A stretch of DNA of 64,000 bases from Elusimicrobia bacterium GWB2_63_16 (GCA_001799715.1 MGTZ01000020.1:11115-75114); one strand, 5' to 3'. Positions 12,868 to 61,300 are shown, counted from the stretch's first letter. Notes: generated from the sequence alone by a model not told the origin. Numbers and translations: made by a program.

Positions 12868-12906
12868 CGCTTGTCTCCGCGCGGAGCGAAGCCAAGTGGT
12901 GTTCGG

Positions 12907-13236: not shown

Positions 13237-13328
13237 TTGGGCAAGCCGCCTGCCCGTACGGTAAGCCGCCAAAAGCCAGATACGACAAGATGGCAGCGTT
13301 CGTCGGCGGTCTTGCCGGGGAAATGATG

Positions 13329-13661: not shown

Positions 13662-13676
13662 AGATAGATTTTACCA
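13662..13676 (-). promoter_or_regulatory. Extended -10 promoter, probable leaderless mRNA
   Basis: Minus strand TGG-TAAAAT-ctatct-ATG. Confidence 0.55.
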
Positions 13677-13731
13677 AAACGACGCAACAAATCCGTCATA
13701 CCACGCGTTTATAATGTAAGCAGGTGAAAAC

Positions 13732-14709: not shown

Positions 14710-14711
14710 TT

Positions 14712-18071: not shown

Positions 18072-18074
18072 TTT

Positions 18075-45400: not shown

Positions 45401-46156
45401 GTGGCGGCCTCCGCCTACACGCTCGACGACGGGCTGGGCTCCTTCTCGCTGACGCCGCTGCCCGACGGCATCTACCGCGTTCGCGCCACCTGGCTGCAGG
45501 ACGGCTTCTCCAACTCCATCGCCAAGGACCAGATCCCGATGGGCTACGCGGACACCAATTTCCTGCTCTCGCTGGACTACGAGCTGGCCAGCGTCTCCGG
45601 CTCGCTGCCGGCCGCCGCGCCTTCCGGCCTGCGGCCGTCCGCGGCGGGGGGACAGGCGCAGTTGTGGCGCGGGGCCAGCCTGCTGGCCACCGCGGCCGCC
45701 GACGCTTCCGGGCGGTTTTTTATAGGCAATCTCATCCCCGGGCCGTACACCCTGCGCGTCAGCGCCGACGGCGCGGCCTGGAAAACTCTGGAGATCTCCC
45801 TGGCGCCCGGCCAGGAACTGCGCCTGCAGCCGCTGGGCGCCCTGGCGGACAAGGCCGGCACCTATGTCTATCCGAACCCGTCCTCGTCGCACGTCGTCTT
45901 CCGCGTGGCCACGGCCATCTCTCCGGTCAGGTTGAAGCTCTCCATCTTCGCGCTCGACGGTACGCTGGTGAAGGCCACGGAGTACGGCGAAGCCGGCTGG
46001 ACCTACACGGACGCCGCCACCGACGTCTACGAGTACCGCTGGGATTTCTCCGGCAGCCGGCCGGCCAGCGGCGTCTATTTCTGCACGGTGAAGCTGAAGG
46101 ACGAGCTCGGCGGCGGCGCCGAGACCCTGACCAGGAAATTCGCGGTCATAAGGTGA
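42410..46156 (+). CDS. Large secreted FN3/Ig-repeat protein with T9SS-type-A-like C-terminal domain
   Basis: Signal peptide; four GL.(P/A)NTTY.F-type FN3 units; DTTPP Ig-like units; carboxypeptidase-regulatory-like domains; TYVYPNP..IFALDGTLVK..W..PASGVYF..TRKFAVIR. Confidence 0.8.
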   Translation: MKKLAVFLAFFAFFKGGALALVPSNVHFDYNTSDSVSVSWDPYAGPGYWAVLSDYEDFSTWISSAPLVTSDVTRLYTGLKANTTYHFKIKFSDQDDSQYSAPISTAIPAVPPSQVSFPEVYYSSVSAQWSTLENSPSSEYQAEAAMDPAFTLNVSFSSGAVSGAVLGGFTPDTTVYLHVRTFGLTGADSPFSAAPSTVTLAYPPGSEAYALVSSTGLSVFWDGNGNPGWTKYELTVSTEEGFATVNYSTALPVNYYEAAGLLPNTTYYFKALAVNGSGIRTGYTVFGATMTYAAAPGATAPALDAVTATSADAHWLGGDNPGFTEYYVQASTAADFTGLDYGPGTWLAGAYRSVTGLESGLTYHFRVRARDALGRPSPWLELGSAVTPAGADTTPPSVTDLQGGDDVWRGAAGGYYMVHFSDLGAGLDRFQVRVATGPAGSGTVVYDWTDAVTGINAAVYDQDWPLPAAVFGAIAENVTSYVSVRVYDLASPANFTVKEDAFYVLRDTTPPTITNAAVSPAGWLAADPGAVFDVDFADSLAGLAAASYSAGSVPGLAGGDILGWTAVPGFAAGPAHTALWGVDFGALRDGGTNYISVRAVDAAGNASVLADVFRILKNTVGPAVSIAAPASAYVSTVTLVTGVAAPMTETDPVAGVQVSLQELSSPNSYYFDGAAFSSASPVWLAAAGTLSWSYDASTAPFAAGVQYRAAARASDTDGLLTAPPYPNVSFRLDQVNPTVYVSTPLADSSVYSLDAVEGTAADAGGAGLGAVEIYVSRALDGKWWNFVAGSWGDVAVASATPAAASWSYTPAAGLRGALAHDQQYFIAAVARDAAAPANTSGLGLAGSTITWKDTLAPETVTAFAPSTGSAPGRVDLRWTFAGDDGGALALTYGRFAVQYSTYAGAVFSTQTAQVMISTAMVPAGAQLSYTVAGLAPETTYYLRLWVQDDAEFWSAPSPLASTLSGDRLNDTISGSVRTPAGAGVTGVMVDAITNLGAVAASAYTLDDGLGSFSLTPLPDGIYRVRATWLQDGFSNSIAKDQIPMGYADTNFLLSLDYELASVSGSLPAAAPSGLRPSAAGGQAQLWRGASLLATAAADASGRFFIGNLIPGPYTLRVSADGAAWKTLEISLAPGQELRLQPLGALADKAGTYVYPNPSSSHVVFRVATAISPVRLKLSIFALDGTLVKATEYGEAGWTYTDAATDVYEYRWDFSGSRPASGVYFCTVKLKDELGGGAETLTRKFAVIR

Positions 46157-47946: not shown

Positions 47947-48675
47947 ATGACGAAAACAATGAAGATGGTAGCGGCCTTCGCCGCGGCGGGGGCGCTGGCG
48001 GCCTTCGCGCAGCCCGCCCTTTGCGCGCCCCGCGTGGCCGCGGTGGCGGTATTCATAACGGGCGACGTGCAGGTTAAGCGCACCGGTGAGTCGGCCTTCT
48101 CTGAACTGAAGGTCAACGACATGCTGTACGCCGGCGACAACATCAAGACCGCGGCCGCCAGCCGCGCCGGACTGGTCACCAAGGCCGGCGCCGAGGTGCG
48201 CCTCAACGAGAACTCCAGCTTCGAGATCTCGTCCCAGGGAAAGCTGCGCGACATGCTGAACCTGTCCGTGGGCCAGCTCTGGACCCGGATGCTGCACAAG
48301 ATGGCCAAGATCAACGTGCGCACCCCGTCGGCCGTCTGCGCCGTGCGCGGCACCGAGGCCGACATCGAGCAGCGCAGCCTGCTGACGGTGAAAGTCTACG
48401 AGGGTCATGTGGACGTGCAGAACTCGCTGGGCAAGCAGTCCCTGCGGGCCGGCCAGATGACCACGGTGTCCGGCGCAAACGCCGCGCCCGAGGCCGCCAA
48501 GAAGATGTCCGGCCAGGACGCCGGCAAGTGGCAGGAAGAGATCAAGGTGAGCGACTACAAAAAATTCATCAGCCTGCTCGAGGAGAGCGCCGCCGGCGGC
48601 AAAGACCTCAAGACGTCCGTCAAGATGCCGGACGGCTCGGTGAAGCAGATAGAAGGTTCGCTGAAGAAGAAGTAA
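47947..48675 (+). CDS. Secreted FecR-domain protein
   Basis: GDVQVKR, GDNIKT, VRLNENS, VRTPSAVCAVRGT, VKVYEGHV, LRAGQ; cleavable signal peptide. Confidence 0.85.
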   Translation: MTKTMKMVAAFAAAGALAAFAQPALCAPRVAAVAVFITGDVQVKRTGESAFSELKVNDMLYAGDNIKTAAASRAGLVTKAGAEVRLNENSSFEISSQGKLRDMLNLSVGQLWTRMLHKMAKINVRTPSAVCAVRGTEADIEQRSLLTVKVYEGHVDVQNSLGKQSLRAGQMTTVSGANAAPEAAKKMSGQDAGKWQEEIKVSDYKKFISLLEESAAGGKDLKTSVKMPDGSVKQIEGSLKKK

Positions 48676-48704
48676 GCCGGCCACGCCCGGCGGAGGAACT
48701 GTTT

Positions 48705-49631
48705 ATGAAACCTGGCATTATACTGGGAGTGCTGCTGCTGGCACAGGGGGCGCCGCTGCGCGCCGCCGGCAGCTCCGCGGCGCAGTTCCTCAGCCTGGGC
48801 TTCGGGGCCCGGGCGCTCGGCATGGGCGAGGCGTACACGGCGGTGTCCGATGACATCTCAAGCGTCTACTATAACCCGGCCGGGCTGGCCTCCGGGGGAG
48901 AGGGGCGGGAGCTCGCTTTCTCGCACGCCTTCCACCTGGAGGACACCTCGGTCTCGCAGGCCGCCTATATGCGGCGGCCCTTCGCGGCGGCGGTCACCTA
49001 TTTCTCGGCCGGGGAGCTTGAGGGCCGCGACGCCACCGGCGGCCTGACCGGGGATTTCACGGCCAGGGACGTGGCGGCGCAGCTGTCCCGCGGCTTCAAG
49101 CTCGGGCCGCTCGATGCCGGTCTCACCGGCAGGGTGATCAGCCAGCGCATACGCTCCAGCGGGGCCACTTCCCTCTCGGCCGACGCCGGGCTGCTGTACC
49201 GCTTCGCGGGCACGCCCTGGTCGCTGGGGGCGGCGGTGACCAACCTGGGCACCCGGGTCAAGTTCGAAGAGGAGAGTTTTCCTCTGCCGCTCAGGTTCAA
49301 GGCCGGCGCGGCGGCGGCTTTCAAGGGCGCGCGGCTGCTGGTGGCGCTCGACGCGGAGTTGCCGGCCGACGGCCCGGCGCTGGCGCGGCTCGGGGCGGAA
49401 TACACCGGGCTGGAAGGCATAGCGCTGCGCCTGGGCTGGCGCACCGCGGCCTCGGGGCAAAGGGACGCGATACTGGGCAGGGGTTTCGACGAGACGTCAG
49501 GGGCGGCAGGCCTGTACGGCTTTTTCGCCGGCGCCGGTTTCGCCTACGCCGGCTTCAGCCTGGACTACGCCCTGCTGCCGTACGGCGACCTGGGCACGGC
49601 GCACCGGTTCGCGGTAGGCATGAAGTTCTAG
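48705..49631 (+). CDS. PorV/PorQ (UPF0164, FadL-like) family outer-membrane barrel
   Basis: QFLSLGFGARALGMGEAYTAVSDDISSVYYNPAGL; LDYALLPYGDLGTAHRF..KF terminal Phe; ATG after GGAGG. Confidence 0.82.
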   Translation: MKPGIILGVLLLAQGAPLRAAGSSAAQFLSLGFGARALGMGEAYTAVSDDISSVYYNPAGLASGGEGRELAFSHAFHLEDTSVSQAAYMRRPFAAAVTYFSAGELEGRDATGGLTGDFTARDVAAQLSRGFKLGPLDAGLTGRVISQRIRSSGATSLSADAGLLYRFAGTPWSLGAAVTNLGTRVKFEEESFPLPLRFKAGAAAAFKGARLLVALDAELPADGPALARLGAEYTGLEGIALRLGWRTAASGQRDAILGRGFDETSGAAGLYGFFAGAGFAYAGFSLDYALLPYGDLGTAHRFAVGMKF

Positions 49632-49725: not shown

Positions 49726-52700
49726 ATGAAGAAACTTATACTCGCCATCGCCATTTTCCTGGGGGCCTCGCCCCTCTGGGCCGAAGTTATGACCTACCAG
49801 GGCCGCCTGAAGGAATCGGACATTCCGGTGAGCGCCAACCGCGTCTTCCTTTTCGAATTCTGCGACGCGGAGACCAGCGGGATCTGCCATACCACGCCTT
49901 CCGGCTACCAGTCCTTCGCCGCGCAGAACGGTCTGTTCAAATCCACCTTCACCATCCCCGCGGCCGACCTGTCGCAGGGGCAGTGGTACCTGCAGGTCTC
50001 GGTGGGCCCCGATATCCCCGGTATCGTGGTTCTCACGCCCCGCGAGCGCCTTACCGCCGTGCCGTACGCCGTCTTCGCGTCCTCGGCTGGCTACGCTTCA
50101 TACGCCGCCGGGGCGGTGCAGAAGACCGGCGACACCATGAGCGGTCAGCTGACGCTGGCCGGCTCCACGCTGACGGTCACCGGCAGCGAGTTCTCCGTAG
50201 GCGGCAGCACCTTCACGGTGAAAGCGGGATACGTGGGCATAGGGGTTGACACCCCCAGTGTGCCGCTTACGCTGGGATACAATAATTTCGCCGGCTGGGA
50301 ATATTCCTCATCGAATCATAGCGTTGCCCACAAAATAGGCAAAACTTCCGACGGCGCCGGCCCGCTGCAGTTTGTTACCACCTTCAACCCCGGGGAATCC
50401 GGTGAGGTTTTCCGTTTCTCCTCCATGTACCGCGGCAATCTCCTTTCCATGCTGGCCGGAGGCGGCGTGGGCATAGGCACCGATATGCCCAGTGCGACGC
50501 TGGATATAATTTCTACCGGCACCGCGGCCGATGTGTACGCGCAGATCTGGCGCGATTCTACCGGCCTTGTCGTAGGCTCTATGAGCGCTACGGGCTTAAT
50601 GCAGGCGGTAAAGTTCGTCGGCGACGGCTCCGGCCTCTCCGGCGTTACAGGGGCTACCGACGATACAAAGGTGCTCAAGACCGGCGACACCATGACCGGC
50701 CCTCTGGCCGTCATTGTCGATACCTCCGTGGATTCGTTCGACATTCAGACTAACGGTATAAATATTTCCACGTCGGGCGCCATTACCACGGTCGGACTCG
50801 GGCTTGGCACGGCTTCGCCAGATACGCGGGGCCAGGGCGCGGCGGATCTCCAGACCCAAAGGACCGCCGCTGACCAGATAGCCTCGGGCCAGTTCTCTTC
50901 TATCTCGGGCGGCGCCCTGAATACCGCCGCGGGAGAGTACTCCGTGGTGTCCGGCGGCTATAAGAATACCGCCGCCGGCCAGGTTTCCAACGTTTCCGGC
51001 GGCCAGTTCAACACCGTTTCAGGGATCAACTCCTCCGTTTCGGGAGGTCTGTTCAATGTCGTGGCCGGTTCTAACTCGGCGGTTTCCGGCGGCGCCTACA
51101 ATACCGTGACCGGCACCTCGGCGGTGATCGCCGGCGGCGAGTATAATGTCGCGTCAGGTAAACACTCCGCGGTGGGGGGCGGTTTTCTCAACACGGCTTC
51201 TTCCTTGTATTCGGCCGTGGGCGCCGGCACGGGCAACACCGCTTCCAACACCTACTCTTACGTTGGCGGCGGCTCCGCCAACCTGGCTTCAGGCTATGTC
51301 GCCGTGGTCGCCGGCGGCGCGGCCAACCGCGCGGACGGATACCGCGCGGCGGTCGGCGGCGGTTATGATAACCGGGCTTCCGGGCAGGATTCGGTAGTCC
51401 CGGGCGGCTATAACAATACGGCGGAAGGCAATTATTCCTTCGCCGCCGGCGCGAAATCCAGCTCTACCGCGCAGGGCGCCTTTACCTGGCAGGACAGCGG
51501 CGGCACCACCATTAACCTCGTCAACGGCGTGACCGACCGCACGGTGTTCAAGAGCCGCGGCGGTTTCCTCGTGACCGGTTCCACCAATACCTCGATGACA
51601 GGCACGCAGGACCGCGGCGTGATCATGACCGGCAACGGCCTCTTGGGCATAGCCATCGACTCGCCCCAGGCCGCGTTGGACGTGGTGTCCACCGGCACCG
51701 CTTCCGACGTCTACGCGCAGATCTGGCGCGATTCTACCGGCCTTGTTGTAGGCTCTGTGAGCGCTGCGGGCTTCATGAAGGCGGTAAAGTTCGTCGGCGA
51801 CGGCTCGGGGCTTACCGGCGTGACCGGGGCTTCCGGCACGGATACTTCGAAGGTGCTCAAGGCCGGCGACACGATGACCGGAGACCTGACGATGGCGCTG
51901 GGTTCCACCATCACGGTTACCGGCAGCTCGTTCAGCGTGGGCGGCGCTACGCTGGCGGTAAGGGACGGGTTCGTGGGCATAGGAACGGCCAGCCCCGCCG
52001 CCCCGCTGACCATCGCCGGCGTGGTGGGCAACGAGATACAGTTCCCCAGCGCCGGCGGAGACATCCAGATCTTCGGTACCGGCAGCCCGGACCAGTTCCT
52101 GATCGGCGGCGCCAACACCTTCGAGGTCAATATCGCCGGCACCTACCCGATGCGGGTAAGCAATACCGGCGTCGCCGTGGATACCGTGACCGCCAACGGG
52201 ACCATCAGCGCGGCTCGCTACTATATCTCCGGCTCCCCGGCGCTGGTCTTCAGCGGCCTGGGCAATATGCTGGCCGGCAAGTCCGCCGGCGCCGTTACGA
52301 CGAGCGGCGACGCCAATACCATGGCGGGCGCCTACGCCGGAGGCTCCAATACCACCGGAGGCAGCAACGCGATGGTGGGCGCTTATTCCGGCTACAGCAA
52401 TATCTCCGGCTCCTATAACGCCCTCCTGGGCAAGGACGCCGGCTACGGCTCTTCCGGTTTTTCTTTCTCGAAAGCCGCGATGGTGGGTTACCAGGCCGGT
52501 TACGCGCTGATGCAGGGGGATAACAACGTATTTCTGGGCCACCGCGCGGGCTACAGCGTAACGGTCGGGAGCTCCAACATCGTCATCGGAGCCGACATCA
52601 CTACGCCGGAAACCGACTCCGATTACACCCTGAACATAGGCGGCGTCCTCCACGGGGACCTGGCGGCCGGGACCATCGGCATCTCCACGCGCGCGCCGCA

Positions 52701-55700
52701 GGCGGCGCTGGATATAGTGTCCACCGGCACTCTTCCTACGCAGATGGCCCAGATCTGGCGCGATTCGACCGGCCTTATCGTCGGTTCCATGAGCGTGACG
52801 GGGGCCATGCAGGCGGTGAAATTCGTGGGCAACGGCGCCGGCCTGACCGGCGTTACGGCTTTAGACGACACCAAACTGGCGCTGACCGGCGGCACTCTGG
52901 GCGGCGTCCTGAACATGAACGGCAACTTCCTGTCGGGTGTCTCCACAATCACCATGCTCAGCGGCAGCATAGCCATAGTGCCGCCCGGCACGGGCGGGAG
53001 CAATATCGGTTACGGTATTTCCATCGGCTCAAACTCCTACAACAACTATACCAGCGGTATCGGCCTGGGGCATTCCGCCCGGGATAACTACACTGGCGGC
53101 GTGGGCATCGGCGATTCCGCCTTCGATAATTACAGCTACGGCGTGGGTGTGGGCAATAACGCCACGAGCAACAACACTTCCGGCGTGGGCATCGGCAACG
53201 GCGCCTCCGGGAACAATAACTTCGGCGTCGGCATAGGCGCGCAGGCTTCAGCCAACCCGTACTACGCGGTAGGGGTGGGCGCCTATTCGCAGAATAACAA
53301 GGGCTATGGCGCGGCGCTGGGCGCCTATTCCTACGCGTCGTCCTCGGCTACCGCCCTCGGCGCGCAGGCCAGGGCCAACGCGGAGCTCAGCCTGGCGCTG
53401 GGCTACGGCACGGTCAACAATTCCACCGGCACGGCCAGCTTCGGCGCCTACGGCGTCAATGCCGCCTATTACCAGGTTAACGGCGGCACCGTATTGAACG
53501 TGCTGCCCGGCATAGGCAGCCTGGCCGTTGGCGTGGCGGCGGCGGCTTCGGATACCGGCGCTTATAATCTTTTCGTGGGCTCGGCTGCGGGCCACGGACA
53601 TAGCTCCGGCTCCAATAATGTGATGCTGGGCTACGGAGCCGGCTTTCAGAACACCACCGGCGCGGGCAATGTTTTTATAGGCGCGGCCGCCGCGAATACG
53701 AATATCAACGGCGACCAGAATATCGTGATCGGCTACAACCAGGGCACTTCCGCGCAGGGAGCTTCCAACGAACTGAATATCGGCGGCTTGATCTTCGGTC
53801 AGATCGGCGCTAAGACCGTCGGTATCTCCACTCGCGCGCCGCAGGCCGCGCTGGACGTGGTGTCTACCGGCACGGGGGCCGGCTTTTACGCGCAGATCTG
53901 GCGCGATTCCACCGGCCTCGTGGTCAGCTCCGTGAGTTCCCAGGGTATCTATTACGGCAACGGTTCCGGCCTGACCAGCCTGCCCGTGCCCTCCGGGGTG
54001 GTGCAGAAGGCGGGGGACTCTATGACCGGGGCTCTGTATCTGGACGGCACCGGCGGCAGCAATGTTTACCTGAAGATCACGCAGACCAGCGGCGGCAACC
54101 TTATTTCCGCAGGCCTGACCGGCGGCGCCACGGCGCTATTATACGCTGATGGCAGTTCTATCGGGCTGTTTAGCGAGCAAGTCTCTCACCGCGTGGGGAT
54201 CGGCGCCGGCATGACCGAGGCGCTGACCGTCACCCAGAACAGGGTGGGCGTGAACAATACTTCGCCTTTCTATACGCTGGACGTCAACGGCCCGGGCCGC
54301 TTCGCGGACCAGATCGTAGCCGGCGGCAGCGTGACGGTCGCCGGCAGCGCCTTCTCGGTGGGCGGCTCCACTTTCGTGGTGAACGCCGGCCGCGTGGGCA
54401 TAAACTGGACTACGCCCGAGGCCGCGCTGCAGGTAAGCGGGGGGGCGAAGTTCCTCTCCAGCGCCGGCACGTCCTATATACTTACGGCGGGCTCCTCCGC
54501 CAGGCCGGACATGTTCTTCGTCTCCAGCGGCGGCATCGTCGGGGCCGGTGATTTTACCGATATTTTCGTGGATACCTACGCGGTGGTCAGCCTGGCGCCG
54601 GTGCTGAAGTCCGGCGCCGACGGCGCGGTGGGCCTTACCGTTTACGCGCGCACGGATAAAGCCGCTACCGTTACCGCCACCGGCCCCGATCAGGTACTGG
54701 CAGGCGGTAATTTCGAAGCCGTGGCGGGCGGCGACGATTCTGTGACCCTGCTGGCGGCTGTCCGCACGCAGCTGCGGCGTGAAAGCGTCGGCGTCGGCGT
54801 AGTATCCAAGGCCTATGGCCTACTCGTAGACGATATCTATACCGATTCGGGCGCGGGCGTCATAACCGACACCTACGGTATTTACATCGGCGACCAGACC
54901 TCCGCTTTCGGCGGTACGCAGACCAACTCCCCCTACGCCATCTACTCTCAGGACCCCGGGGCCAAAGTGTTTTTTGCGGGTAACCTGGGACTGGGCATGT
55001 CTAACCCGGGGGCCCGCCTGGATATCGCCGCGATAGCCGACGATCCCGCTACTATGGGGCAGATCTGGCGCAATTCCCTCGGCAATATAGTCTCTTCCAT
55101 GAGCGCCACCGGCGTGATGATGTCCGCGAAGTTCGTCGGCGACGGCTCCGGGCTGACCAACGTCCCCGGCGTACAGAAGACCGGCGACACCATGACCGGG
55201 CAGCTTACTATATTCGGCTCGTCTCTCACTATCCGCCCCGCTGCGAGCGACGCCTATTCGCTGTACGTAAGTTCCGCCGACGGCTCTACCCCGGCGCTTA
55301 CGGTAAAGCCCGGCGGCGAACTGTACACCGCCGGCAGGGCGGGCATCGGTTCAGCCGCCCCGGCCGAAGCGCTGGACATATCCGGCAGGGTGTTGATATC
55401 CACCAATGCCGGCAATGTTTCTACCGACGGACTGTTCTCCAACGGTTCTGGCGGCATCGTGTTCCAAAGCGCCGGCACCACTTACCTGAAGGCGTCTTAC
55501 GGCGGCGGCTATGTCGGCATCGGCCCGAGCGCCAACGTGTACACCGATACCATGTCGCCGAAGGTGCAGGCCAGGGGCAGCATGAGCGTGGGTTCCGGCT
55601 ACAACACTTCCCATCCCCCGGCGGAAAGCCTGGTGGTCCAGGGCCGCCTGGGCATAGGTACGCCCGCGCCCGACGCGGCGCTGAGCGTGGTTCAGGCCGA

Positions 55701-58290
55701 TGTCGCCGCCTCATCGTACACTGTGCATATCGGCACTTCGGCCTCCGTCTACCACCTGGTGGTCACTACCGCCGGCTGGGTGGGCCTTAACACGCAGCGG
55801 CCCCAGGCCCCGCTGCACCTGACCGCGGCCACCAAGGACGAGGGCATAGTTGTCGAGCACAACAGCAATACTGCCGAAGGCTCCTACCTCGCCCTGCTCA
55901 AGGCGCGCGGCACGGCGCAGTCGCAGTCCCTGGTAGCCGAGGGCGACAATCTGGGCGTGCTGGCTTTCGGCGGCTATAACGGCGCCTCCGGCGACCCGTT
56001 CCCGACGGCGGCCGCGATAATCGGCCGCGTGGACGGCGCTCCTACCCTGAGCCCGGCCCTCGATATGCCCGGCCGGCTGGAGTTCATGACCGCCGCGGAC
56101 GGCACTGCTGAAACCGTGACGCGCATGGTAATACGCGGCGACGGCGGGGTCGGTATCGCTACCGGCACCCCGCAGGCTATGCTGGACATACTCTCCACCT
56201 CCACTGTCGCCCAGATCTGGCGCGACGCAACAGGCGTGGTGCGCGCCTCAATGACCGCGGACGGCACGCTCTACGCTGCGGTGGGCTCTGCGGTGCAGAA
56301 GAGCGGGGACAATATGACCGGTCCCCTGACCATAACCCCGGACCCCGCGGTCTATATCTACGACCTTATGACCAACGGCATCCAGATATCCACGGCCGGG
56401 TCCATAGTTACGGTAGGCGTCGGCAACGGCTCCATGGGCGCCGGTCAGCGCGGCATGGGCGTGGTAGACCTGCAGACGGCCAGAGCGACCATAAGCCAGG
56501 TGGCGCTGGGGGACTTTTCCACGCTTAGCGGCGGCGCCTACAACACCGCCTTCGGTTCCGGCACGGTCATGGCCGGCGGCCTTTATAACATAGCCGCGGG
56601 CACGCTGGCCGTGATCTCCGGCGGTCAGAATAACTACGCGGACGCCCGCTTCAGCGCCGTGGGCGGCGGCAAGGGCAATACGGCCAACGCGGACTACGCC
56701 GGAGTCTTCTCCGGGTCCGGGAACCTTGTGGCCGGCGCAGGGGGATTCATAGGCGGCGGCCAGGGGAACACTGTGGAGTTCAATTACGGCGCGATAGCCG
56801 GCGGCATGAACAACCTGGTGGACGTGGCGGCCGATTACGGCTTCGTGGGCGGCGGCTACGGCAATAAAGCCGCCAACACGCACGCCGCGGTGGCCGGGGG
56901 CTGGACTAACGCCGCCAACGGCATGGAAGCCTTCGTGGGCGCGGGCTACATGAACGCCGCCGACGGCGAGAAATCGGTGGTGGGCGGCGGCAATAATAAT
57001 ACGGTAACTGCTTTCGGTCTCTATTCGGCGGTAGTAGGCGGCAGCAGCAATACCGTGGCCGGCGAGGCCAGCTTCGTGGGCGGCGGCAACACCAATGTCG
57101 TCTCAGGCAAAAACTCCGTGGTGCCGGGCGGCCTTCGCAATACCGTGACCGCGATCCAGTCCGGCATAATGAGCGGCAATGATAACGTCGTTACCGGGAC
57201 CGCTTCAGTAGTCTCGGGAGGCGATCATAACGTTGTAAGCGGACAGGATTCGGTGATAGCCGGCGGCGCCAACAACAGCGCCAAAGGCTGGTGGGCCACC
57301 ATCCCCGGCGGCTACCAGAACTCCGCCGTGGGGAACTACTCGTTCGCGGCCGGCTACAAGTCCAGTTCCACGGCGGCGGGCGCGTTCACCTGGGCCGATA
57401 GCCAGGGAACAGAGGTTCTCAACGGGGTGCCCGACCAGGTCCGTTTCAAGGCTGCCGGCGGTTTCATGGTCTCCACCTCAGCCGTCTATTCCACTCCCGG
57501 CTTGTACGTCAACGAGTTCAATGCGGTGGGCATCGGCACCGCCACCACCCGCAGCGACCTGACGCTCTTTGTCAACAGGGGCGCCAGCCAGAATACGTTC
57601 CTGCTGGGCAGCGAAAGCAAAGGCCTGCGCCTGCGCGATACCGGCAGCCTCATAGATATAGAATCGGTGGGAAGCGATATTATCTTCAACGCCAGCGGGC
57701 AGGGCGCCTATTTCTACCAGGGTAAGGTAGGCTTCGGTACCACCGCCAGCGGCGTGGTCGGAACAAAAGTGGCCATAGTGCAGCCTTTCCTCACCACCGA
57801 CCCGTACGTGCTGAAGGTGGGCACCGGCACGAACCCGACCAGCCTCACCGTATCCACCTCGGGCGTGATAGGGATGCCCATGCAGTCCATGGCCAGGGCA
57901 TATGGCGCCGCGAGCGTCGGAGTGCCCTCCTCGACTTTGTGGCAGCCCGTCAGCGTCGACGCGAAGTTTGAGGACACCCAGGGTGAATATGATACCACCA
58001 CTCAAAAGTTTACCGCCACGACGGGCGGCCTCTACCTGGTGGCGGGCCATGTATGGATAGCCGCCAACGCGACGGGGTCCCGCGGTATAGGCGTCGGCAT
58101 CAACGGATCGGCTACTCCGCTGAAGCAGGCGACCGATGTCAGGGCGGCAGGCGTTTCTACCAGTGACCTCACTCTCAGTTCCGTAATAAGGCTGCTGCCA
58201 GGAGAGTTCCTCCGGCTTATGGTCTACCAGGATTCCGGTTCCACGCTGAACGTCGGCAACGCCACGTTTGACGTGGTGAAATTGAATTAA
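49726..58290 (+). CDS. Giant secreted phage-tail-fibre-like (probably trimeric) adhesin with C-terminal C1q-like domain
   Basis: Signal peptide; TYQGRL...NGLF...LTPRERLTAVPYA N-domain; repeated KxGDTMTG and VGIGT..P.A.LD shaft motifs; Gly/Asn beta-solenoid repeats; C-terminal YDTTTQKFTA..GLYLV..SSVIRL.PGE.L.L.VYQ. Confidence 0.8.
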   Translation: MKKLILAIAIFLGASPLWAEVMTYQGRLKESDIPVSANRVFLFEFCDAETSGICHTTPSGYQSFAAQNGLFKSTFTIPAADLSQGQWYLQVSVGPDIPGIVVLTPRERLTAVPYAVFASSAGYASYAAGAVQKTGDTMSGQLTLAGSTLTVTGSEFSVGGSTFTVKAGYVGIGVDTPSVPLTLGYNNFAGWEYSSSNHSVAHKIGKTSDGAGPLQFVTTFNPGESGEVFRFSSMYRGNLLSMLAGGGVGIGTDMPSATLDIISTGTAADVYAQIWRDSTGLVVGSMSATGLMQAVKFVGDGSGLSGVTGATDDTKVLKTGDTMTGPLAVIVDTSVDSFDIQTNGINISTSGAITTVGLGLGTASPDTRGQGAADLQTQRTAADQIASGQFSSISGGALNTAAGEYSVVSGGYKNTAAGQVSNVSGGQFNTVSGINSSVSGGLFNVVAGSNSAVSGGAYNTVTGTSAVIAGGEYNVASGKHSAVGGGFLNTASSLYSAVGAGTGNTASNTYSYVGGGSANLASGYVAVVAGGAANRADGYRAAVGGGYDNRASGQDSVVPGGYNNTAEGNYSFAAGAKSSSTAQGAFTWQDSGGTTINLVNGVTDRTVFKSRGGFLVTGSTNTSMTGTQDRGVIMTGNGLLGIAIDSPQAALDVVSTGTASDVYAQIWRDSTGLVVGSVSAAGFMKAVKFVGDGSGLTGVTGASGTDTSKVLKAGDTMTGDLTMALGSTITVTGSSFSVGGATLAVRDGFVGIGTASPAAPLTIAGVVGNEIQFPSAGGDIQIFGTGSPDQFLIGGANTFEVNIAGTYPMRVSNTGVAVDTVTANGTISAARYYISGSPALVFSGLGNMLAGKSAGAVTTSGDANTMAGAYAGGSNTTGGSNAMVGAYSGYSNISGSYNALLGKDAGYGSSGFSFSKAAMVGYQAGYALMQGDNNVFLGHRAGYSVTVGSSNIVIGADITTPETDSDYTLNIGGVLHGDLAAGTIGISTRAPQAALDIVSTGTLPTQMAQIWRDSTGLIVGSMSVTGAMQAVKFVGNGAGLTGVTALDDTKLALTGGTLGGVLNMNGNFLSGVSTITMLSGSIAIVPPGTGGSNIGYGISIGSNSYNNYTSGIGLGHSARDNYTGGVGIGDSAFDNYSYGVGVGNNATSNNTSGVGIGNGASGNNNFGVGIGAQASANPYYAVGVGAYSQNNKGYGAALGAYSYASSSATALGAQARANAELSLALGYGTVNNSTGTASFGAYGVNAAYYQVNGGTVLNVLPGIGSLAVGVAAAASDTGAYNLFVGSAAGHGHSSGSNNVMLGYGAGFQNTTGAGNVFIGAAAANTNINGDQNIVIGYNQGTSAQGASNELNIGGLIFGQIGAKTVGISTRAPQAALDVVSTGTGAGFYAQIWRDSTGLVVSSVSSQGIYYGNGSGLTSLPVPSGVVQKAGDSMTGALYLDGTGGSNVYLKITQTSGGNLISAGLTGGATALLYADGSSIGLFSEQVSHRVGIGAGMTEALTVTQNRVGVNNTSPFYTLDVNGPGRFADQIVAGGSVTVAGSAFSVGGSTFVVNAGRVGINWTTPEAALQVSGGAKFLSSAGTSYILTAGSSARPDMFFVSSGGIVGAGDFTDIFVDTYAVVSLAPVLKSGADGAVGLTVYARTDKAATVTATGPDQVLAGGNFEAVAGGDDSVTLLAAVRTQLRRESVGVGVVSKAYGLLVDDIYTDSGAGVITDTYGIYIGDQTSAFGGTQTNSPYAIYSQDPGAKVFFAGNLGLGMSNPGARLDIAAIADDPATMGQIWRNSLGNIVSSMSATGVMMSAKFVGDGSGLTNVPGVQKTGDTMTGQLTIFGSSLTIRPAASDAYSLYVSSADGSTPALTVKPGGELYTAGRAGIGSAAPAEALDISGRVLISTNAGNVSTDGLFSNGSGGIVFQSAGTTYLKASYGGGYVGIGPSANVYTDTMSPKVQARGSMSVGSGYNTSHPPAESLVVQGRLGIGTPAPDAALSVVQADVAASSYTVHIGTSASVYHLVVTTAGWVGLNTQRPQAPLHLTAATKDEGIVVEHNSNTAEGSYLALLKARGTAQSQSLVAEGDNLGVLAFGGYNGASGDPFPTAAAIIGRVDGAPTLSPALDMPGRLEFMTAADGTAETVTRMVIRGDGGVGIATGTPQAMLDILSTSTVAQIWRDATGVVRASMTADGTLYAAVGSAVQKSGDNMTGPLTITPDPAVYIYDLMTNGIQISTAGSIVTVGVGNGSMGAGQRGMGVVDLQTARATISQVALGDFSTLSGGAYNTAFGSGTVMAGGLYNIAAGTLAVISGGQNNYADARFSAVGGGKGNTANADYAGVFSGSGNLVAGAGGFIGGGQGNTVEFNYGAIAGGMNNLVDVAADYGFVGGGYGNKAANTHAAVAGGWTNAANGMEAFVGAGYMNAADGEKSVVGGGNNNTVTAFGLYSAVVGGSSNTVAGEASFVGGGNTNVVSGKNSVVPGGLRNTVTAIQSGIMSGNDNVVTGTASVVSGGDHNVVSGQDSVIAGGANNSAKGWWATIPGGYQNSAVGNYSFAAGYKSSSTAAGAFTWADSQGTEVLNGVPDQVRFKAAGGFMVSTSAVYSTPGLYVNEFNAVGIGTATTRSDLTLFVNRGASQNTFLLGSESKGLRLRDTGSLIDIESVGSDIIFNASGQGAYFYQGKVGFGTTASGVVGTKVAIVQPFLTTDPYVLKVGTGTNPTSLTVSTSGVIGMPMQSMARAYGAASVGVPSSTLWQPVSVDAKFEDTQGEYDTTTQKFTATTGGLYLVAGHVWIAANATGSRGIGVGINGSATPLKQATDVRAAGVSTSDLTLSSVIRLLPGEFLRLMVYQDSGSTLNVGNATFDVVKLN

Positions 58291-58331: not shown

Positions 58332-61300
58332 ATGGGAAATCGCATATTCCCGGCCGCCTTGTTGGCATGCCTGTTTACCGTACAGGCGGCGGCCCAAAAA
58401 ACAGCGGGAGACATAACCGTGCTCGGTGACGCGGCGGACTACTCGTCCGCCAGCGCGGGGCAGTCGCATGCCGACGGCAAGGTAGTGCAGGGGGGGCTGG
58501 CGGGCGCGGCCCACGGCTCGCAGGAGTTCCACAGCGCGGGCACCGACATCGTGCTGGAGTCTGGTTTCTACTCGCGGCTCGTCTCGTCGGCAGCGGTCTT
58601 CGGCTACGCCGCGCAGGGGATCAGCAGTTATACGCTGGCCTGGACCGACCAGGGCTGGCCGTATCCCGCCAATCCCCCGGGCACCACTTACGACCTCTTC
58701 CTCTCCACCTGGGCGGAGGCGGACCCGTACATGGTCTCCTATTCCACCGACGAACACGGCTACCCGGTGGAGGGTCTGGCCCCCAACACCAGCTACTACA
58801 ACTTCCTGTTCGCCAACTATATGGAGGGCGACTATTCAGCCTATTCCTCTTCTACCGCGGTGACGATGGCGGCCGTGCCTTCCACCGGGGCATTTACGCT
58901 GACCGACGCTGGTCACAGTACCCTGGGGCTCACCTTCGCCTCCTCCGGCAACCCGCCGCCGTTCCTTGAGGCCGCCTGGCTGACGGCCCTGCCGCCCGCC
59001 GGCACGCTGCCGGCGCCGCGCACCGGCGCCGCGGCGGTGGTCTACGGTTCGCACGTGTACTTGAGCGGCGGGTTCGACGGGGTCTATTATTCAAGCGCCA
59101 TCTTCCGCGCCGAGACCTATGCTGACGGCACGCTGGGCCCCTGGGGCCTTGCCGGTTTCATGCCGGCCGCCCTCTACGGCCACCAGGCGGTGGCCGCGCG
59201 CGGCCGCCTTTACATCCTGGGCGGTTCCGGCTTCGGCGCGGCGCACGACGAGGTCTGGTCGGCCGATATCTCCTCGGCGGGCGCGCTCGGCTCCTGGGAG
59301 GCAGAGCCTAAACTGAACGCCCCCGTTTATTTCCACGCCGCGGCGCTGGCGGGGGGCAGGATATACGTGGCGGGCGGCTACATGCCCGGTTCCGGCGTCT
59401 TGAACAGTCTCCGCTACGCGGCTATCGGGCCCGACGGAACGTTGTCGGACTGGCAGGCGGCGGGCAGCGTTCCGGCCCCGCGCTACGGGCATTCCCTGAC
59501 GCTCCTGGAAGACCGCCTGCTGCTGGCCGGCGGCAACGACGGTTCTTCGGCCAGAGCCGAAACCTGGACCTATTCCCCGGCCGGGGACGCCTGGACGCCC
59601 TATACGCAGCTGCCCTCCCCGCGCTTCGGCCATGCCGCCGCCGCCGTTGAGAACAGGCTTTATGTTTTCGGCGGCAATAACGGTTACGCCTCGCAGTCCC
59701 ACGTGTTCCACAGCAGCGTGCCGGCCGCGGGAACCGCGCCCTGGGCGGCGGGGGAACCGATACCGGCCGCGCGCCAGTTCTCCGCCGTGGCCCTGACCGG
59801 GGGCCGCCTCCACCTCATAGGCGGAGCGTCGGGCTCGGTCCCCTCGGATTCCGTCTGCTCGGCGGTGGTACTGGGCGCGGAGTACCAGGCCGAAGTGGCC
59901 GAGAACGCCGGCTTTATAGGCGCCAAATCCTCGAGCTGGTCCGCCAGCCCGGCCTTCGCCTTTACCGAACTGAAGCCCGGCACGCAGTATTACTACCGGG
60001 CGCGGGCCCGCAACTGGTCCGGGGTCGCCACCGTTTTTTCCCTGAGCGGGTCCACCTTCACCTACGCCGCTGTGCCCGGTACCGCCCCCTGGACCAATGT
60101 CTGGGTCTCTTCCGCGACGCTGAACTGGACGGCCAACGGCAACCCGGCGGGCAGCGACTACGCCGTGGTCTACTCCTCCTACCCGGACTACTCCTACCCG
60201 CAGGGCATGAGCGCGGCGGGCGCTCTTTCTGCGGGCCTGACCGGCCTGCAGCAGAGCACCACCTATTACGCCAAGGTCCGCCTGCAGGACGGGGACCTGC
60301 TGTCGCGCTACGCCGAACTGCCGCCCGTGCGGACCGGCTTCGACCCGGCCCTGGACGTCAGCAGCCCCACTATAGACAGCAACCAGGGGGATATCCCCGG
60401 CTGGCAATCCACCAACACCTTCCTCTGCGACGTGGACTTCGCCGATGTCGGCGCGGCCGGCTTGGACCGGATAGAACTGCGCATTTCGACCCAGGCCGCG
60501 GACCCGGCCAGCTTCGTCGGTGAGTGGACGCCGGCAATCACGGCCATCAATCAGGATGCCTACACCGCTGACTGGCGCCTGACCCAGCAGGTCTGGGAGG
60601 CCATGCTCGACGGCGCCTCCAACTATGTTTCCGTCCGCGCCTATGACCGCTCCGGCAACCGCGGCGAGGAACTGGAACTCTTCATGGTGCGCAAGGACAC
60701 TACGCCCCCGGCGATAGCGGTCGGTTACGCGGCCCCTGCGGCCTGGCAGATAGATTATCCCGGAGACGTGACGCCCCTGGACTTCGGCGACCCGCTGTCG
60801 GGCCTGGCCCGGGTGCAGTATAGCGTCAGCGCCTCCAAGAACTTCGCGGACGGCGCCGTGATACCGTGGACGGATATCGCCGGGCTGACCCCCGGCGCCA
60901 CCTGGTACCGCCCCACGCTGACTTACAGCTTCAACGCGCTGGCCAACGCGACCTCCAATTACTTCAGCTTCAGGGCGGTGGACGTGGCCGGCTCCACCCG
61001 CACGCTCACCGACGCCTTCGGCATAGCCAAGAACGTCAGCGGCCCCATAGTGGATATCTCCACGCCCACGGCCCTGTTCCTGTCCACGTTCACGCGGGTT
61101 TCCGGCGACACGGCCGAGACCAACTTCCACCAGGTGATGGGCACCGAGGTCTCCATCCGCGACCTTACGAGCCTGCTTTACTACAACGCCGGAGCTTTCC
61201 TCTCCGGCTCGCACGCCTGGCAGGACGCGCAGGATTTCCCCAGCAGCTATACCATAGTCTTCCAGAATCTGCCGCTGATCAGCGGCCGCCAGTACCAGGT

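What the first reader, a model, noticed from the sequence alone, without database searches (positions are those of the whole stretch)
49726..58290. 2854-aa fibre built from near-equal ~1.15 kb cassettes joined by a conserved connector
Seen: the connector (A/G)QIWR(D/N)xxG.(V/I)V.S(M/V)..G recurs six times at about 50539, 51715, 52747, 53890, 55057 and 56209 (spacings 1176, 1032, 1143, 1167, 1152 nt), usually followed by GDGSGL and a KxGDTMTG-like motif. Cassette contents differ: 14-aa SGGxxN solenoid, AGxxN solenoid, 13-aa NYxxGVGIG solenoid, non-repetitive phage-fibre segments. Copies 1 and 2 are near-identical in DNA over ~100 bp, and the first and last cassettes are paralogous. Inference: connectors act as recombination points for cassette shuffling with roughly constant rise per cassette.
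Basis: partly seen in the sequence, partly recalled or inferred. Interest (0 to 1): 0.75.

Follow-up and report, generated by a model that had tools for sequence, protein, structure and literature searches.

The report
Mosaic giant surface fibre of Elusimicrobia
A 2,854-residue secreted fibre protein of an uncultured Elusimicrobia bacterium is built from exchangeable modules joined by a repeated 83-residue joint, and it resembles phage tail fibres and Bdellovibrio MAT adhesins rather than being a new kind of system.

Summary
One ORF (49726-58290, +) encodes a 2,854-aa secreted protein with six copies of a connector at exactly the stated spacings.

The connector is a composite 83-aa joint with four parts:
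- a capping loop, VGIGTxxPxxxLDV;
- the AQIWRD strand;
- FVGDGSGL;
- KxGDTMTG.

A trimer model places QIWRD against ALDVV of a neighbouring chain (score 0.91, best control 0.00). Cassette 1 matches the UspA1 head, and the tip has a C1q/TNF fold.

The gene sits in a slot that is syntenic across Elusimicrobia genomes. Flanks are 84-88% identical in DNA to two relatives, while the fibre body is patchy and rearranged, with a different length, cassette order and tip.

Homology blocks end at the connector motifs. Two near-identical natural variants differ by one 78-aa module, and the junction lies in a 12-nt VGIG-coding repeat.

Cassette shuffling is supported on an evolutionary time scale. "Constant rise" is not: spacing in relatives runs from 43 to 1274 aa. 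Thirteen of 15 connector pairs give z of 2.2 or less in the shared-codon test, so the conservation is mainly at protein level.

Closest known systems are Bdellovibrio MAT fibres and phage tail fibres. This is a new variant of a known kind.

The parts
49726..58290 (+). Fibre gene, 2,854 aa plus stop
   Evidence: Single open frame. 133 large relatives at E<=1e-3, and the named ones that carry connectors are Elusimicrobia.
49726..49788 (+). Signal peptide (MKKLILAIAIFLGASPLWA|E), read by eye
   Evidence: Sequence. The first 20 residues are identical in P0002-P0007. No signal-peptide predictor was run.
49789..50100 (+). Conserved N-terminal beta-sandwich domain (TYQGRLK ... NGLFKST ... VPY)
   Evidence: 20 invariant columns in 20 sequences. 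AF2 model with about 90 pLDDT over residues 1-93, all beta. No PDB or BFVD fold match at E<=1e-3.
50101..50232 (+). First KTGDTMSG motif plus TVTGSEFSVGGSTFTV hairpin module; conserved DNA homology with relatives ends here
   Evidence: blastn homology to L002 ends at 50168 and to L001 at 50243.
50233..50466 (+). 78-aa module (aa 170-247) that is present or absent among near-identical natural variants; bounded by the 12-nt repeat CGTGGGCATAGG (VGIG)
   Evidence: P0248/P0250 (2,776 aa) equal P0254 minus exactly this module. Homologous modules sit at other positions in P0151, P0046, P0010, P0014, P0057 and P0031.
50458..50709 (+). Connector K1
   Evidence: Excess codon identity with K2: 42 of 60 against 27.5 expected.
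50710..51633 (+). Cassette 1: 15-aa SGGxxN solenoid, YadA/UspA1-type head
   Evidence: UspA1 head 3pr7, E 7.2e-24, aa 420-645. 45-nt repeat.
51634..51891 (+). Connector K2
   Evidence: Trimer model of aa 560-770 scores 0.91 against best control 0.00.
51892..52665 (+). Cassette 2: hairpin module plus 17-aa AGxxN solenoid
   Evidence: (D8, D10). 37 homology blocks with relatives start at aa 840-860.
52666..52914 (+). Connector K3
52915..53808 (+). Cassette 3: 14-aa NYxxGVGIG solenoid plus a second AGxxN solenoid
   Evidence: TRF period 42 nt. D10/D14 repeats. 22 block starts at aa 1260-1280.
53809..54039 (+). Connector K4 (short GNGSGL arm)
54040..54975 (+). Cassette 4: non-repetitive, with two capping loops and a hairpin module
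   Evidence: Atlas look-alikes are unnamed clusters; a phage-tail-like trimerisation cluster scores 0.88, a lead only.
54976..55209 (+). Connector K5 (GQIWRN variant)
55210..56127 (+). Cassette 5: non-repetitive; its last ~110 aa match cyanophage tail-fibre / endosialidase-type genes
   Evidence: tblastn against phages: 12 of 50,697 records. 11 of them cover aa ~2038-2171 at 37-42% identity, E 3e-8 to 7e-7.
56128..56331 (+). Connector K6 (lacks the GDGSGL arm)
56332..57525 (+). Cassette 6: longer SGGxxN head, paralogue of cassette 1
   Evidence: 38% identity, E 8e-58. Pfam LbR_Ice_bind at aa 2451-2535, 37.8 bits against cut-off 30.
57880..58287 (+). C-terminal C1q/TNF-like jelly-roll tip
   Evidence: AF2 model core at pLDDT 82-95. 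Foldseek PDB: C1QL3 5ybz E 3.2e-7, TM 0.76; also C1QTNF5, ExsFA/BxpB and phage fibre knobs. Same-type tips in L015 and L019 pass the Pfam C1q cut-off.
48690..49631 (+). Upstream neighbour: PorV/PorQ-family outer-membrane protein
   Evidence: NF033709, 147.1 bits against cut-off 90. PDB PorV 6h3i, E 6e-5. 95% identical in L001 and L002.
47947..48675 (+). Upstream neighbour: FecR-domain protein
   Evidence: Pfam FecR, E 5.8e-13. Conserved in 27 of 44 loci.
58332..62945 (+). Downstream neighbour: 1,537-aa Kelch/fn3 protein with a T9SS type A sorting domain
   Evidence: Pfam. TIGR04183, 28.3 bits against cut-off 23. 81-85% identical in L001 and L002.

Best explanation
The gene encodes a secreted, very long homotrimeric surface fibre, probably an adhesin or recognition fibre, of an Elusimicrobia bacterium.

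**Layout.** A conserved N-terminal beta-sandwich domain is the cell-proximal end. A C1q/TNF-like jelly roll is the distal binding tip. The shaft between them is a string of structurally different trimeric modules: a UspA1/YadA-type head, a 17-aa solenoid, a 14-aa solenoid, and phage-fibre-type beta-helix modules.

**The connector.** It is an ~83-aa inter-chain joint. The capping-loop strand (ALDVV) of one chain pairs with the QIWRD strand of the next, followed by the FVGDGSGL and KxGDTMTG elements. This resets the trimer register between unlike modules. Because every module ends or begins with the same short motifs, in-frame joins at those motifs give foldable products.

**Evolution.** Over evolutionary time, modules, cassettes and tips have been gained, lost, duplicated and exchanged at these motifs. 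The gene has become the hypervariable member of an otherwise conserved surface-protein locus.

**What is shown:** the anatomy, family distribution, synteny, mosaicism, junction positions and one natural module indel.

**What is inferred:** trimer state (from a model and from homology), surface display, adhesin function, and whether junctions reflect microhomology-guided recombination or only selection for foldable joins.
For: **Anatomy.**

**Trimer-type parts.**
- UspA1 head, E 7.2e-24.
- C1q/TNF tip fold, E 3e-7, TM 0.76. Pfam C1q passes its cut-off in same-type tips of L015 and L019.
- Homotrimer model of aa 560-770: score 0.91, best of 3 controls 0.00. That mark was reached by 20 of 30 proteins solved as pairs of one chain and by 1 of 23 solved as single chains. 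The runs share at least 93% of contacts and partner pLDDT is at least 89. The lowest-error contacts are residues 664-669 (AQIWRD) with 649-654 (AALDVV) of another chain.

**Family.**
- Connector in 79 of 119 large relatives.
- Profile search: 5,912 representatives at E<=1e-3, 783 at <=1e-10, 141 at <=1e-30.
- The named holders of the full connector are Elusimicrobia or are unclassified ('bacterium').

**Hypervariable slot.**
- Flanks are colinear at 85.6% and 84.2% (L001) and at 88.0% and 86.9% (L002) DNA identity. Between 50168/50243 and 58351/58397 only patches of 68-83% remain.
- Flank proteins are 81-99% identical.
- Slot genes range from 479 to 3,240 aa. Tips fall into several unrelated types. 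The window's type is shared with L018, L015, L019 and L021, but not with the closest-flank relatives L001 and L002.

**Junctions at motifs.**
- 108 of 215 protein homology-block ends lie in a connector +-10 aa, against 20.7% expected (p 9e-22).
- 10 of 128 DNA block ends lie within -3..+20 nt of a QIWR start, against 1.7% expected (p 7e-5). Only 2 of 128 blocks span a whole connector.
- Of 14 block ends inspected by eye, 3 fall at QIWR|D and several more fall at or beside a VGIG-type loop or a GDxMxG motif.
- A 234-nt module indel separates variants that are otherwise identical. Its junction is in a 12-nt repeat.
- The longest exact runs between connectors centre on the QIWR core in 13 of 15 pairs, 12-35 nt long.
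Against: - There is no experimental evidence of any kind. The trimer rests on a model, and that pass may partly reflect memory of solved UspA1-type heads, since aa 560-645 belong to the head.
- No membrane anchor or known export signal beyond a Sec-type leader was found, so surface display is an inference.
- Block ends at connectors are partly expected anyway. Connectors are the best conserved stretches, so alignments extend into them. Block starts are not enriched (34 of 195) and instead peak inside cassettes 2 and 3.
- In the shared-codon test, 13 of 15 connector pairs give z of 2.2 or less. Connectors group by position across genes. They are therefore old and kept by selection on the protein, not homogenised by frequent recombination.
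- Within the 90% cluster, 4 of 4 full-length 2,854-aa copies have the same architecture, so nothing suggests fast switching.
- The sequence link between the connector and solved MAT or phage structures is weak (E 0.09-1.4).
Confidence: 0.7

Rival explanations
1. The connectors are dedicated recombination sites for frequent, possibly programmed, cassette switching, comparable to antigenic-variation systems. Their DNA, not only their protein sequence, is what is conserved.
For: - All six copies use the same 12-mer for QIWR. Codon usage predicts 0.29 per copy, or 6e-4 for six. In relatives 29 of 49 QIWR sites use that 12-mer.
- K1 and K2 share a 35-nt exact run and show excess codon identity, z 3.9.
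- DNA homology blocks stop at QIWR|D.
- Several connector-bearing paralogues per genome could act as donors.
Against: - 13 of 15 connector pairs give z of 2.2 or less in the shared-codon test.
- Connectors cluster by position across genes, not by gene.
- 4 of 4 near-identical full-length copies from separate assemblies share one architecture. The only variant is a 78-aa indel at a VGIG repeat, not at a QIWR core.
- No silent cassette array, recombinase or reverse transcriptase was seen among the window ORFs scanned.
- The 12-mer test was chosen after seeing the data.
Confidence: 0.12
2. The near-equal ~1.15-kb spacing is functional. Each cassette adds a constant rise, so the fibre is a ruler made of equal units.
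For: Spacings of 391/344/381/389/388 aa give CV 0.047, the lowest among 56 proteins with four or more spacings. Only 9.8% of family spacings fall within 344-391 aa.
Against: - Family spacings range from 43 to 1274 aa, median 302.
- Slot orthologues of 1,100 aa or more have 3-9 connectors. Slot genes range from 479 to 3,240 aa.
- The cassettes hold different folds with 14-, 15- and 17-aa periods and non-repetitive parts, so equal residue counts do not imply equal rise.
- This protein is the extreme of many that were examined.
Confidence: 0.08
3. The gene is a prophage or tailocin tail fibre rather than a cellular surface protein.
For: - KxGDTMTG and FxGDGSxLTG motifs occur in phage and chlorovirus fibre proteins.
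- The end of cassette 5 matches cyanophage tail-fibre genes at 37-42% identity.
- The tip fold is also seen in phage fibre knobs.
Against: - The protein has a Sec-type signal peptide.
- PHROGs gives 0 families.
- Neighbours are cellular: pullulanase, PorV/PorQ, FecR, Kelch/fn3 proteins. They are syntenic in a dozen or more genomes.
- Only 12 of 50,697 phage records match, each over 4-5% of the protein.
- GC content is like that of the flanks.
Confidence: 0.03
4. The gene is a trimeric autotransporter adhesin (type Vc).
For: UspA1 head match, E 7.2e-24. Its head-connector-head layout recalls the head-neck-stalk grammar of these adhesins.
Against: No YadA-type C-terminal anchor was found by Pfam or NCBIfam. 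The C-terminus is a C1q-like jelly roll. The conserved end is the N-terminus.
Confidence: 0.02

Closest known systems
Bdellovibrio bacteriovorus MAT (mosaic adhesive trimer) fibres (Caulton et al. 2024, PMC10769870; I read the abstract, found passages, and sections 10, 11, 12, 14 and 16)
   Same: - A signal peptide is followed by a conserved beta-rich N-terminal domain that has no PDB homologue.
- The shaft is a long trimeric beta-helix.
- Capping loops at module edges have the consensus V-G-G/N-pi-x-x-P-x-x-x-L. Here there are 12 loops of the VGIGTxxPxxxL type, and they align with the MAT chain 8ojn (GRVGVGTTAPTSALHV).
- Tips are exchangeable and include TNF/C1q-like folds. C1QL2 (4qpy), the C1q-like structure the paper names as close to Bd2734, is also among my tip hits.
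- Some large relatives listed carry Peptidase_S74.
   Different: - This protein is about three times longer than a typical MAT (~1,000 aa).
- It contains UspA1/YadA-type heads and other solenoid classes.
- It carries the QIWR composite joint reiterated 1-13 times. This joint was found only in Elusimicrobia or unclassified records among those that carry a name.
- The sequence link to MAT structures is weak (E 0.23 and 1.4).
- N-domain homology to MAT could not be tested.
- The organism is not known to be a predator.
- The paper's supplementary tables of non-Bdellovibrio relatives could not be opened.
Phage tail fibres and tailspikes (S74/endosialidase-type, cyanophage fibres)
   Same: - Mosaic trimeric fibres with a conserved N-terminal attachment end and swappable distal tips.
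- KxGDTMTG motif (8jov).
- The cassette-5 end matches cyanophage fibre genes.
- Tip fold resembles phage knobs.
   Different: - It lies in a cellular, syntenic locus and has a signal peptide.
- No phage genes are nearby and PHROGs gives no hit.
Trimeric autotransporter adhesins (UspA1, YadA)
   Same: The 15-aa SGGxxN head is homologous to the UspA1 head. Both have a modular head/connector architecture and both are known for domain shuffling (the last point is recalled).
   Different: There is no C-terminal beta-barrel anchor. Polarity is reversed: the conserved end is N-terminal and the binding tip is C-terminal.
Chlorovirus glycoprotein repeat (PF06598) / PBCV-1 fibre protein P22 (8h2i)
   Same: The FVGDGSGLTGV arm of the connector aligns with the reiterated fFGNGSxLTGiT repeats. 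PF06598 is precomputed on several relatives.
   Different: The match is weak (E 0.09) and covers only one arm of the connector.
C1q/TNF-like bacterial tips (BclA, ExsFA/BxpB)
   Same: The tip has the same jelly-roll fold. The tip of L021 hits BclA_C at 24.5 bits, below the cut-off of 38.
   Different: There is no collagen-like stalk. The tip is attached to a beta-solenoid fibre.

Membership tests
MAT superfamily (Bdellovibrio-type mosaic adhesive trimers) | Signal peptide followed directly by a conserved beta-rich N-terminal domain of ~130 aa | tested here: inconclusive
   A signal peptide (read by eye) is followed by a conserved, all-beta domain of ~100 aa. Like the MAT N-domain, it has no PDB homologue. 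Homology to the Bdellovibrio N-domain itself was not testable because no MAT N-domain sequence or structure was available. The word-based search found only Elusimicrobia.
MAT superfamily (Bdellovibrio-type mosaic adhesive trimers) | Capping-loop motif V-G-G/N-pi-x-x-P-x-x-x-L at beta-helix module edges | tested here: met
   12 loops of the type [VIL]G[ILV]x...P...L[DHTQ][ILV] were found. The profile aligns with the MAT chain 8ojn at that loop, but only at E 0.23. The spacing between VG and P is one residue longer than the consensus as printed in the paper.
MAT superfamily (Bdellovibrio-type mosaic adhesive trimers) | Intertwined homotrimer along the fibre | tested here: met
   This rests on a model only. 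Three copies of aa 560-770 score 0.91 against best control 0.00. The mark was reached by 20 of 30 proteins solved as pairs of one chain and by 1 of 23 solved as single chains. Contact agreement is at least 93% and pLDDT at least 89.
MAT superfamily (Bdellovibrio-type mosaic adhesive trimers) | Variable C-terminal adhesive tip (S74, TNF-like, lectin) on a conserved base | tested here: met
   The tip has a C1q/TNF fold. Several unrelated tip types occupy the same slot. Some large relatives listed carry S74.
MAT superfamily (Bdellovibrio-type mosaic adhesive trimers) | Display on the cell surface and a role in cell-cell recognition | not testable with these tools
   This needs microscopy or fractionation of an uncultured organism, or heterologous expression.
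Trimeric autotransporter adhesin (type Vc) | C-terminal YadA-type beta-barrel anchor | tested here: not met
   No anchor family was found by Pfam or NCBIfam. The C-terminus folds as a C1q-like jelly roll.
Trimeric autotransporter adhesin (type Vc) | YadA/UspA1-type head repeats | tested here: met
   UspA1 head 3pr7, E 7.2e-24 over aa 420-645.
T9SS cargo protein | C-terminal type A or B sorting domain | tested here: not met
   The fibre has no Por_Secre_tail or TIGR04183 hit. The downstream Kelch protein does have one: 28.3 bits against cut-off 23.
Phage tail fibre (virion component) | Encoded among phage structural genes | tested here: not met
   The neighbours are cellular and syntenic. PHROGs gives 0 families.

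The most novel reading that the evidence does not exclude
The QIWR joint may be a universal adaptor. It would let structurally unrelated trimeric modules be concatenated in any order: a TAA-type head, 14- and 17-aa solenoids, phage S74-type beta-helices and small globular inserts.

Its nucleotide core is the same 12-mer in 6 of 6 copies here and in 29 of 49 in relatives. Together with the VGIG-coding repeat, it would serve as microhomology for in-frame exchange among the several paralogues each genome carries.

On this reading, Elusimicrobia own a natural plug-and-play system for varying the length and specificity of a cell-contact fibre. That could hint at an attachment-dependent lifestyle (episymbiotic or predatory) in these uncultured bacteria.
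Probability: 0.25. Interest if true: 0.7.

Novelty: new variant of a known kind. Interest (0 to 1): 0.5.

Why it matters
**Relation to known systems.** Mosaic trimeric fibres are how phages, and Bdellovibrio, recognise other cells. This finding extends that design to an uncultured phylum and to a much larger scale, with fibres up to 4,418 aa and 1-13 joints.

**Structural interest.** It shows that one short, conserved inter-chain joint can splice very different trimeric folds, including an autotransporter-type head in a protein that has no autotransporter anchor.

**Evolutionary interest.** It also gives a clean natural example of a hypervariable gene inside a conserved locus. One strain-level module indel has its junction caught in a 12-nt repeat.

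**Practical value.**
- The joint is a candidate building block for engineering chimeric fibres.
- The locus is a marker of strain- and species-level surface diversity in Elusimicrobia.
- The PorV/PorQ-family neighbour suggests a testable route for display.

None of this overturns current ideas. It is a well-supported extension of them.

Tried and rejected
- **Self-BLAST.** Whole-protein self-BLAST returned only the identity hit. I replaced it with segment-by-segment BLAST. That run had composition statistics off, so its E-values are inflated. The key pair was re-checked.
- **Family libraries.** NCBIfam and PHROGs gave no family for the fibre. Pfam gave only LbR_Ice_bind.
- **N-domain.** There were no fold matches at E<=1e-3 in PDB or BFVD. 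The best were weak phage baseplate hits (E 0.012), kept as a lead only. Atlas look-alikes of the N-domain and of cassettes 4-5 are unnamed clusters and are also leads only.
- **Architecture clustering.** Coarse clustering of inter-connector segments in 16 slot fibres gave 15 distinct strings of 16. Single linkage lumped most solenoid cassettes into one family, so I do not rely on it beyond the connector counts of 3-9.
- **Concerted evolution of connectors within a gene.** Rejected on the tree and the codon test, except for K1-K2.
- **Assembly artefact for the whole architecture.** Rejected because four full-length copies from separate assemblies agree. However, three cluster members are cut at contig ends inside K1, so the repeat does break assemblies.
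- **Literature.** Five searches found no paper on Elusimicrobia fibre proteins. This covers only the open library that was searched.
- **Supplementary files.** The supplementary tables of PMC10769870 could not be opened.
- **Not searched.** DNA of the closest relatives (P0002, P0003) and connectors in uncultivated phages therefore stayed unchecked.
Full report
**1. Observation**

The ORF from ATG 49726 to the stop at 58288-58290 is uninterrupted and encodes 2,854 aa. QIWR occurs six times, at nt 50542, 51718, 52750, 53893, 55060 and 56212. It occurs nowhere else in the six frames of the window.

A 51-nt DNA repeat family reproduces the stated spacings, 1176/1032/1143/1167/1152. The 15-mer CAGATCTGGCGCRAY matches six times against 0.01 expected, and 0 of 100 shuffles reach six.

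Copies 1 and 2 are 96% identical over 51 nt, 90% over 111 nt and 82% over 199 nt. Cassettes 1 and 6 are paralogues: 38% identity, E 8e-58.

Minor corrections to the repeat periods:
- SGGxxN: 15 aa
- GVGIG: 14 aa
- AGxxN: 17 aa

**2. Anatomy**

From the N-terminus the protein has:
- a Sec-type leader (read by eye);
- a conserved N-terminal domain, TYQGRLK...NGLFKST...VPY, with 20 invariant columns in 20 sequences, modelled as a beta sandwich at about 90 pLDDT and without fold matches at E<=1e-3 in PDB or BFVD;
- a first KTGDTMSG motif with a hairpin module;
- six connector-cassette units;
- a C-terminal domain.

The tip model has a core at pLDDT 82-95. It matches C1q/TNF jelly rolls: C1QL3 at E 3.2e-7 and TM 0.76, C1QTNF5, ExsFA/BxpB and phage fibre knobs. 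Same-type tips in two relatives pass the Pfam C1q cut-off.

Cassette 1 is homologous to the UspA1 head, E 7.2e-24. The end of cassette 5 matches cyanophage tail-fibre or endosialidase-type genes. In total 12 of 50,697 phage records match, 11 of them at this region, with 37-42% identity. Pfam otherwise finds only LbR_Ice_bind in cassette 6. NCBIfam and PHROGs find nothing.

**3. The connector**

Aligned, the six copies define an ~83-aa composite:
- VGIGTxxPxAxLDVvSTGT
- AQIWRDSTGxVVxSMSxxG
- KFVGDGSGLTGV
- KxGDTMTGxL

The first element also occurs outside connectors, 12 times in all. It corresponds to the 'capping loop' that Caulton et al. describe at the edges of beta-helix modules in Bdellovibrio MAT fibres (PMC10769870, section 11).

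Against PDB sequences the profile gives only weak, piecewise matches:
- MAT chain 8ojn at the loop, E 0.23
- PBCV-1 P22 repeats at the GDGSGL arm, E 0.09
- a tail fibre at KAGDTMTG, E 0.14

A three-copy model of aa 560-770 scored 0.91 with best control 0.00. That mark was reached by 20 of 30 proteins solved as pairs of one chain and by 1 of 23 solved as single chains. The runs agree in at least 93% of contacts and partner pLDDT is at least 89. The lowest-error contacts join AQIWRD (664-669) of one chain to AALDVV (649-654) of another.

The model supports binding but does not show it. It may draw partly on memory of UspA1-type heads for aa 560-645.

**4. Family**

The whole-protein search returned 133 proteins at E<=1e-3, of which 120 were listed. 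Those that carry a name and also a connector are Elusimicrobia. The connector HMM finds 1-13 copies in 79 of 119 of them.

A full-library profile search gave 5,912 representatives at E<=1e-3, 783 at <=1e-10 and 141 at <=1e-30. Of 115 further representatives examined, 97 hold a full connector and 89 hold QxWR. Hits named as Margulisiibacteriota or Paceibacterota carry only sub-motifs.

A search with K2 alone found 85 proteins at E<=1e-5. All named ones are Elusimicrobia or unclassified. They include several genes per genome.

**5. A hypervariable gene in a conserved locus**

The genome search returned 44 loci, all from MAGs titled Elusimicrobia or 'bacterium'. The conserved gene order is:

pullulanase - two small genes - fn3 giant - 579-aa protein - FecR-domain protein - PorV/PorQ-family protein - FIBRE - Kelch/fn3 giant - 336-aa protein

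By tblastn at E<=1e-8, FecR is found in 27 of 44 loci, the PorV-like gene in 39 of 44 and the Kelch protein in 36 of 44. Many loci are cut by contig ends.

Against L001 and L002 the DNA is colinear at 85.6% and 88.0% up to nt 50243 and 50168. It is colinear again at 84.2% and 86.9% from 58351 and 58397. Between those points only patches of 68-83% remain. Flank proteins are 81-99% identical.

The genes occupying the slot range from 479 to 3,240 aa. The cassette map shows:
- a colinear relative with extra cassettes (P0002);
- relatives in which the cassette-3 type precedes the cassette-1 type (P0007, P0008, P0018);
- absence of the window's tip from its nine closest relatives, P0002-P0010.

Tip types at the slot fall into several unrelated groups. 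The window's type is shared with L018 (54%), L015, L019 and L021, but not with L001 or L002. L009 has an Lcl_C tip.

**6. Where the joins are**

- Protein level: 108 of 215 homology-block ends lie within a connector +-10 aa, against 20.7% expected (p 9e-22).
- DNA level: 10 of 128 block ends lie within -3..+20 nt of a QIWR start, against 1.7% expected (p 7e-5). Only 2 of 128 blocks span a whole connector.
- Of 14 block ends inspected by eye, 3 fall at QIWR|D and several more fall at or beside a VGIG-type loop or a GDxMxG motif.

The clearest case lies within the 90%-identity cluster. P0248 and P0250 (2,776 aa) equal P0254 (2,854 aa) except for the clean absence of aa 170-247. The junction is inside the 12-nt repeat CGTGGGCATAGG, which encodes VGIG at both ends. 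Homologues of that 78-aa module sit at quite different positions in six other family members.

**7. What argues against the stronger reading**

- Block starts are not enriched in connectors (34 of 195). They peak inside cassettes 2 and 3, at the start of the AGxxN solenoid, so the exchanged units are often smaller than a cassette.
- Some enrichment of block ends is expected simply because connectors are conserved.
- Synonymous codons: only K1-K2 (42 of 60 same codon against 27.5 expected, z 3.9) and, weakly, K3-K4 (z 2.4) stand out. The other 13 pairs give z from -0.1 to 2.2.
- In a tree of 44 connectors from eight proteins, copies group by position across proteins, not by gene. The window's K1 is the exception.
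- The four full-length cluster members that are at least 99.6% identical share one architecture.
- Spacing in relatives is 43-1274 aa. The regularity of this protein is the extreme of 56.
- One hint points the other way: all six QIWR cores use one 12-mer. The expectation from codon usage is 6e-4, and 29 of 49 cores in relatives use it too. This was a post hoc test.

**8. How it most likely works**

Shown:
- a secreted, modular protein;
- a conserved N-terminus;
- a variable shaft and tip;
- reiterated joints;
- a syntenic locus with a PorV/PorQ-family gene (147.1 bits against cut-off 90) directly upstream;
- a downstream neighbour with a T9SS type A sorting domain (28.3 bits against cut-off 23).

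Inferred: three chains intertwine along the whole length. The N-domain holds the fibre at the cell surface, and its partner is unknown. The PorV/PorQ-family neighbour is a candidate by position only. The C1q-like tip binds a ligand on another surface. The joints reset the trimer register between unlike modules and so make in-frame joins at shared motifs viable. This has allowed cassettes and tips to be gained, lost and exchanged between paralogues and lineages.

**9. Comparison and novelty**

The design matches the MAT superfamily and phage tail fibres. It borrows a head from trimeric autotransporters but lacks their anchor, so it is not one.

Membership in MAT is plausible but not established. 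The N-domain could not be compared and the sequence link is weak.

No paper on such fibres in Elusimicrobia turned up in five searches of the open library. The MAT paper's supplementary tables of relatives in other bacteria could not be opened.

I rate this a new variant of a known kind, of moderate interest.

Noticed in passing
window 6943-19124: A second surface-protein cluster lies upstream. It holds a 1,974-aa ORF with no NCBIfam hit (6943-12867), an M6 metalloprotease with weak T9SS-type C-terminal matches (14712-18071), and a second PorV/PorQ-family gene (18075-19124, 130.4 bits against cut-off 90). PorV/PorQ-family genes placed next to giant secreted proteins may be a recurring arrangement in this genome.
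   Followed up: partly
window 58332-62945 and 42410-46156: Two giant Kelch/fn3/CarboxypepD_reg proteins flank the fibre. The downstream one passes the T9SS type A sorting-domain cut-off (28.3 against 23). The upstream one falls just below it (19.9). T9SS-like sorting signals in Elusimicrobia may deserve a look. Two literature searches gave nothing specific.
   Followed up: partly
window 50458-50709 (K1): Three members of the 90% protein cluster (P0251, P0252, P0255) begin at aa 254, 292 and 248. Their contigs therefore end inside connector K1. The K1/K2 repeat seems to break short-read assemblies, so copy number in other MAGs may be under-called.
   Followed up: no
window 50542-56223 (six QIWR cores): All six cores use the identical 12-mer CAGATCTGGCGC. 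Codon usage predicts 0.29 per copy. 29 of 49 cores in related loci use the same 12-mer. This could be context-dependent codon bias or conservation at DNA level; it is unexplained.
   Followed up: partly
L026, L008, L003 (slot downstream of the first fibre gene): In some genomes the slot seems to hold two consecutive fibre genes. For example P0040 and P0050 carry adjacent locus tags, as do P0018 and P0045. This suggests split or duplicated forms.
   Followed up: no
window 375-1091: ORF with a REP-associated tyrosine transposase match (62.1 bits, below the cut-off of 80).
   Followed up: no
window 51289-52653 (-) and 59091-62789 (-): Long antisense ORFs (454 and 1,232 aa) overlap the fibre gene and the Kelch gene. 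These are typical of 65% GC DNA and I did not treat them as genes.
   Followed up: no
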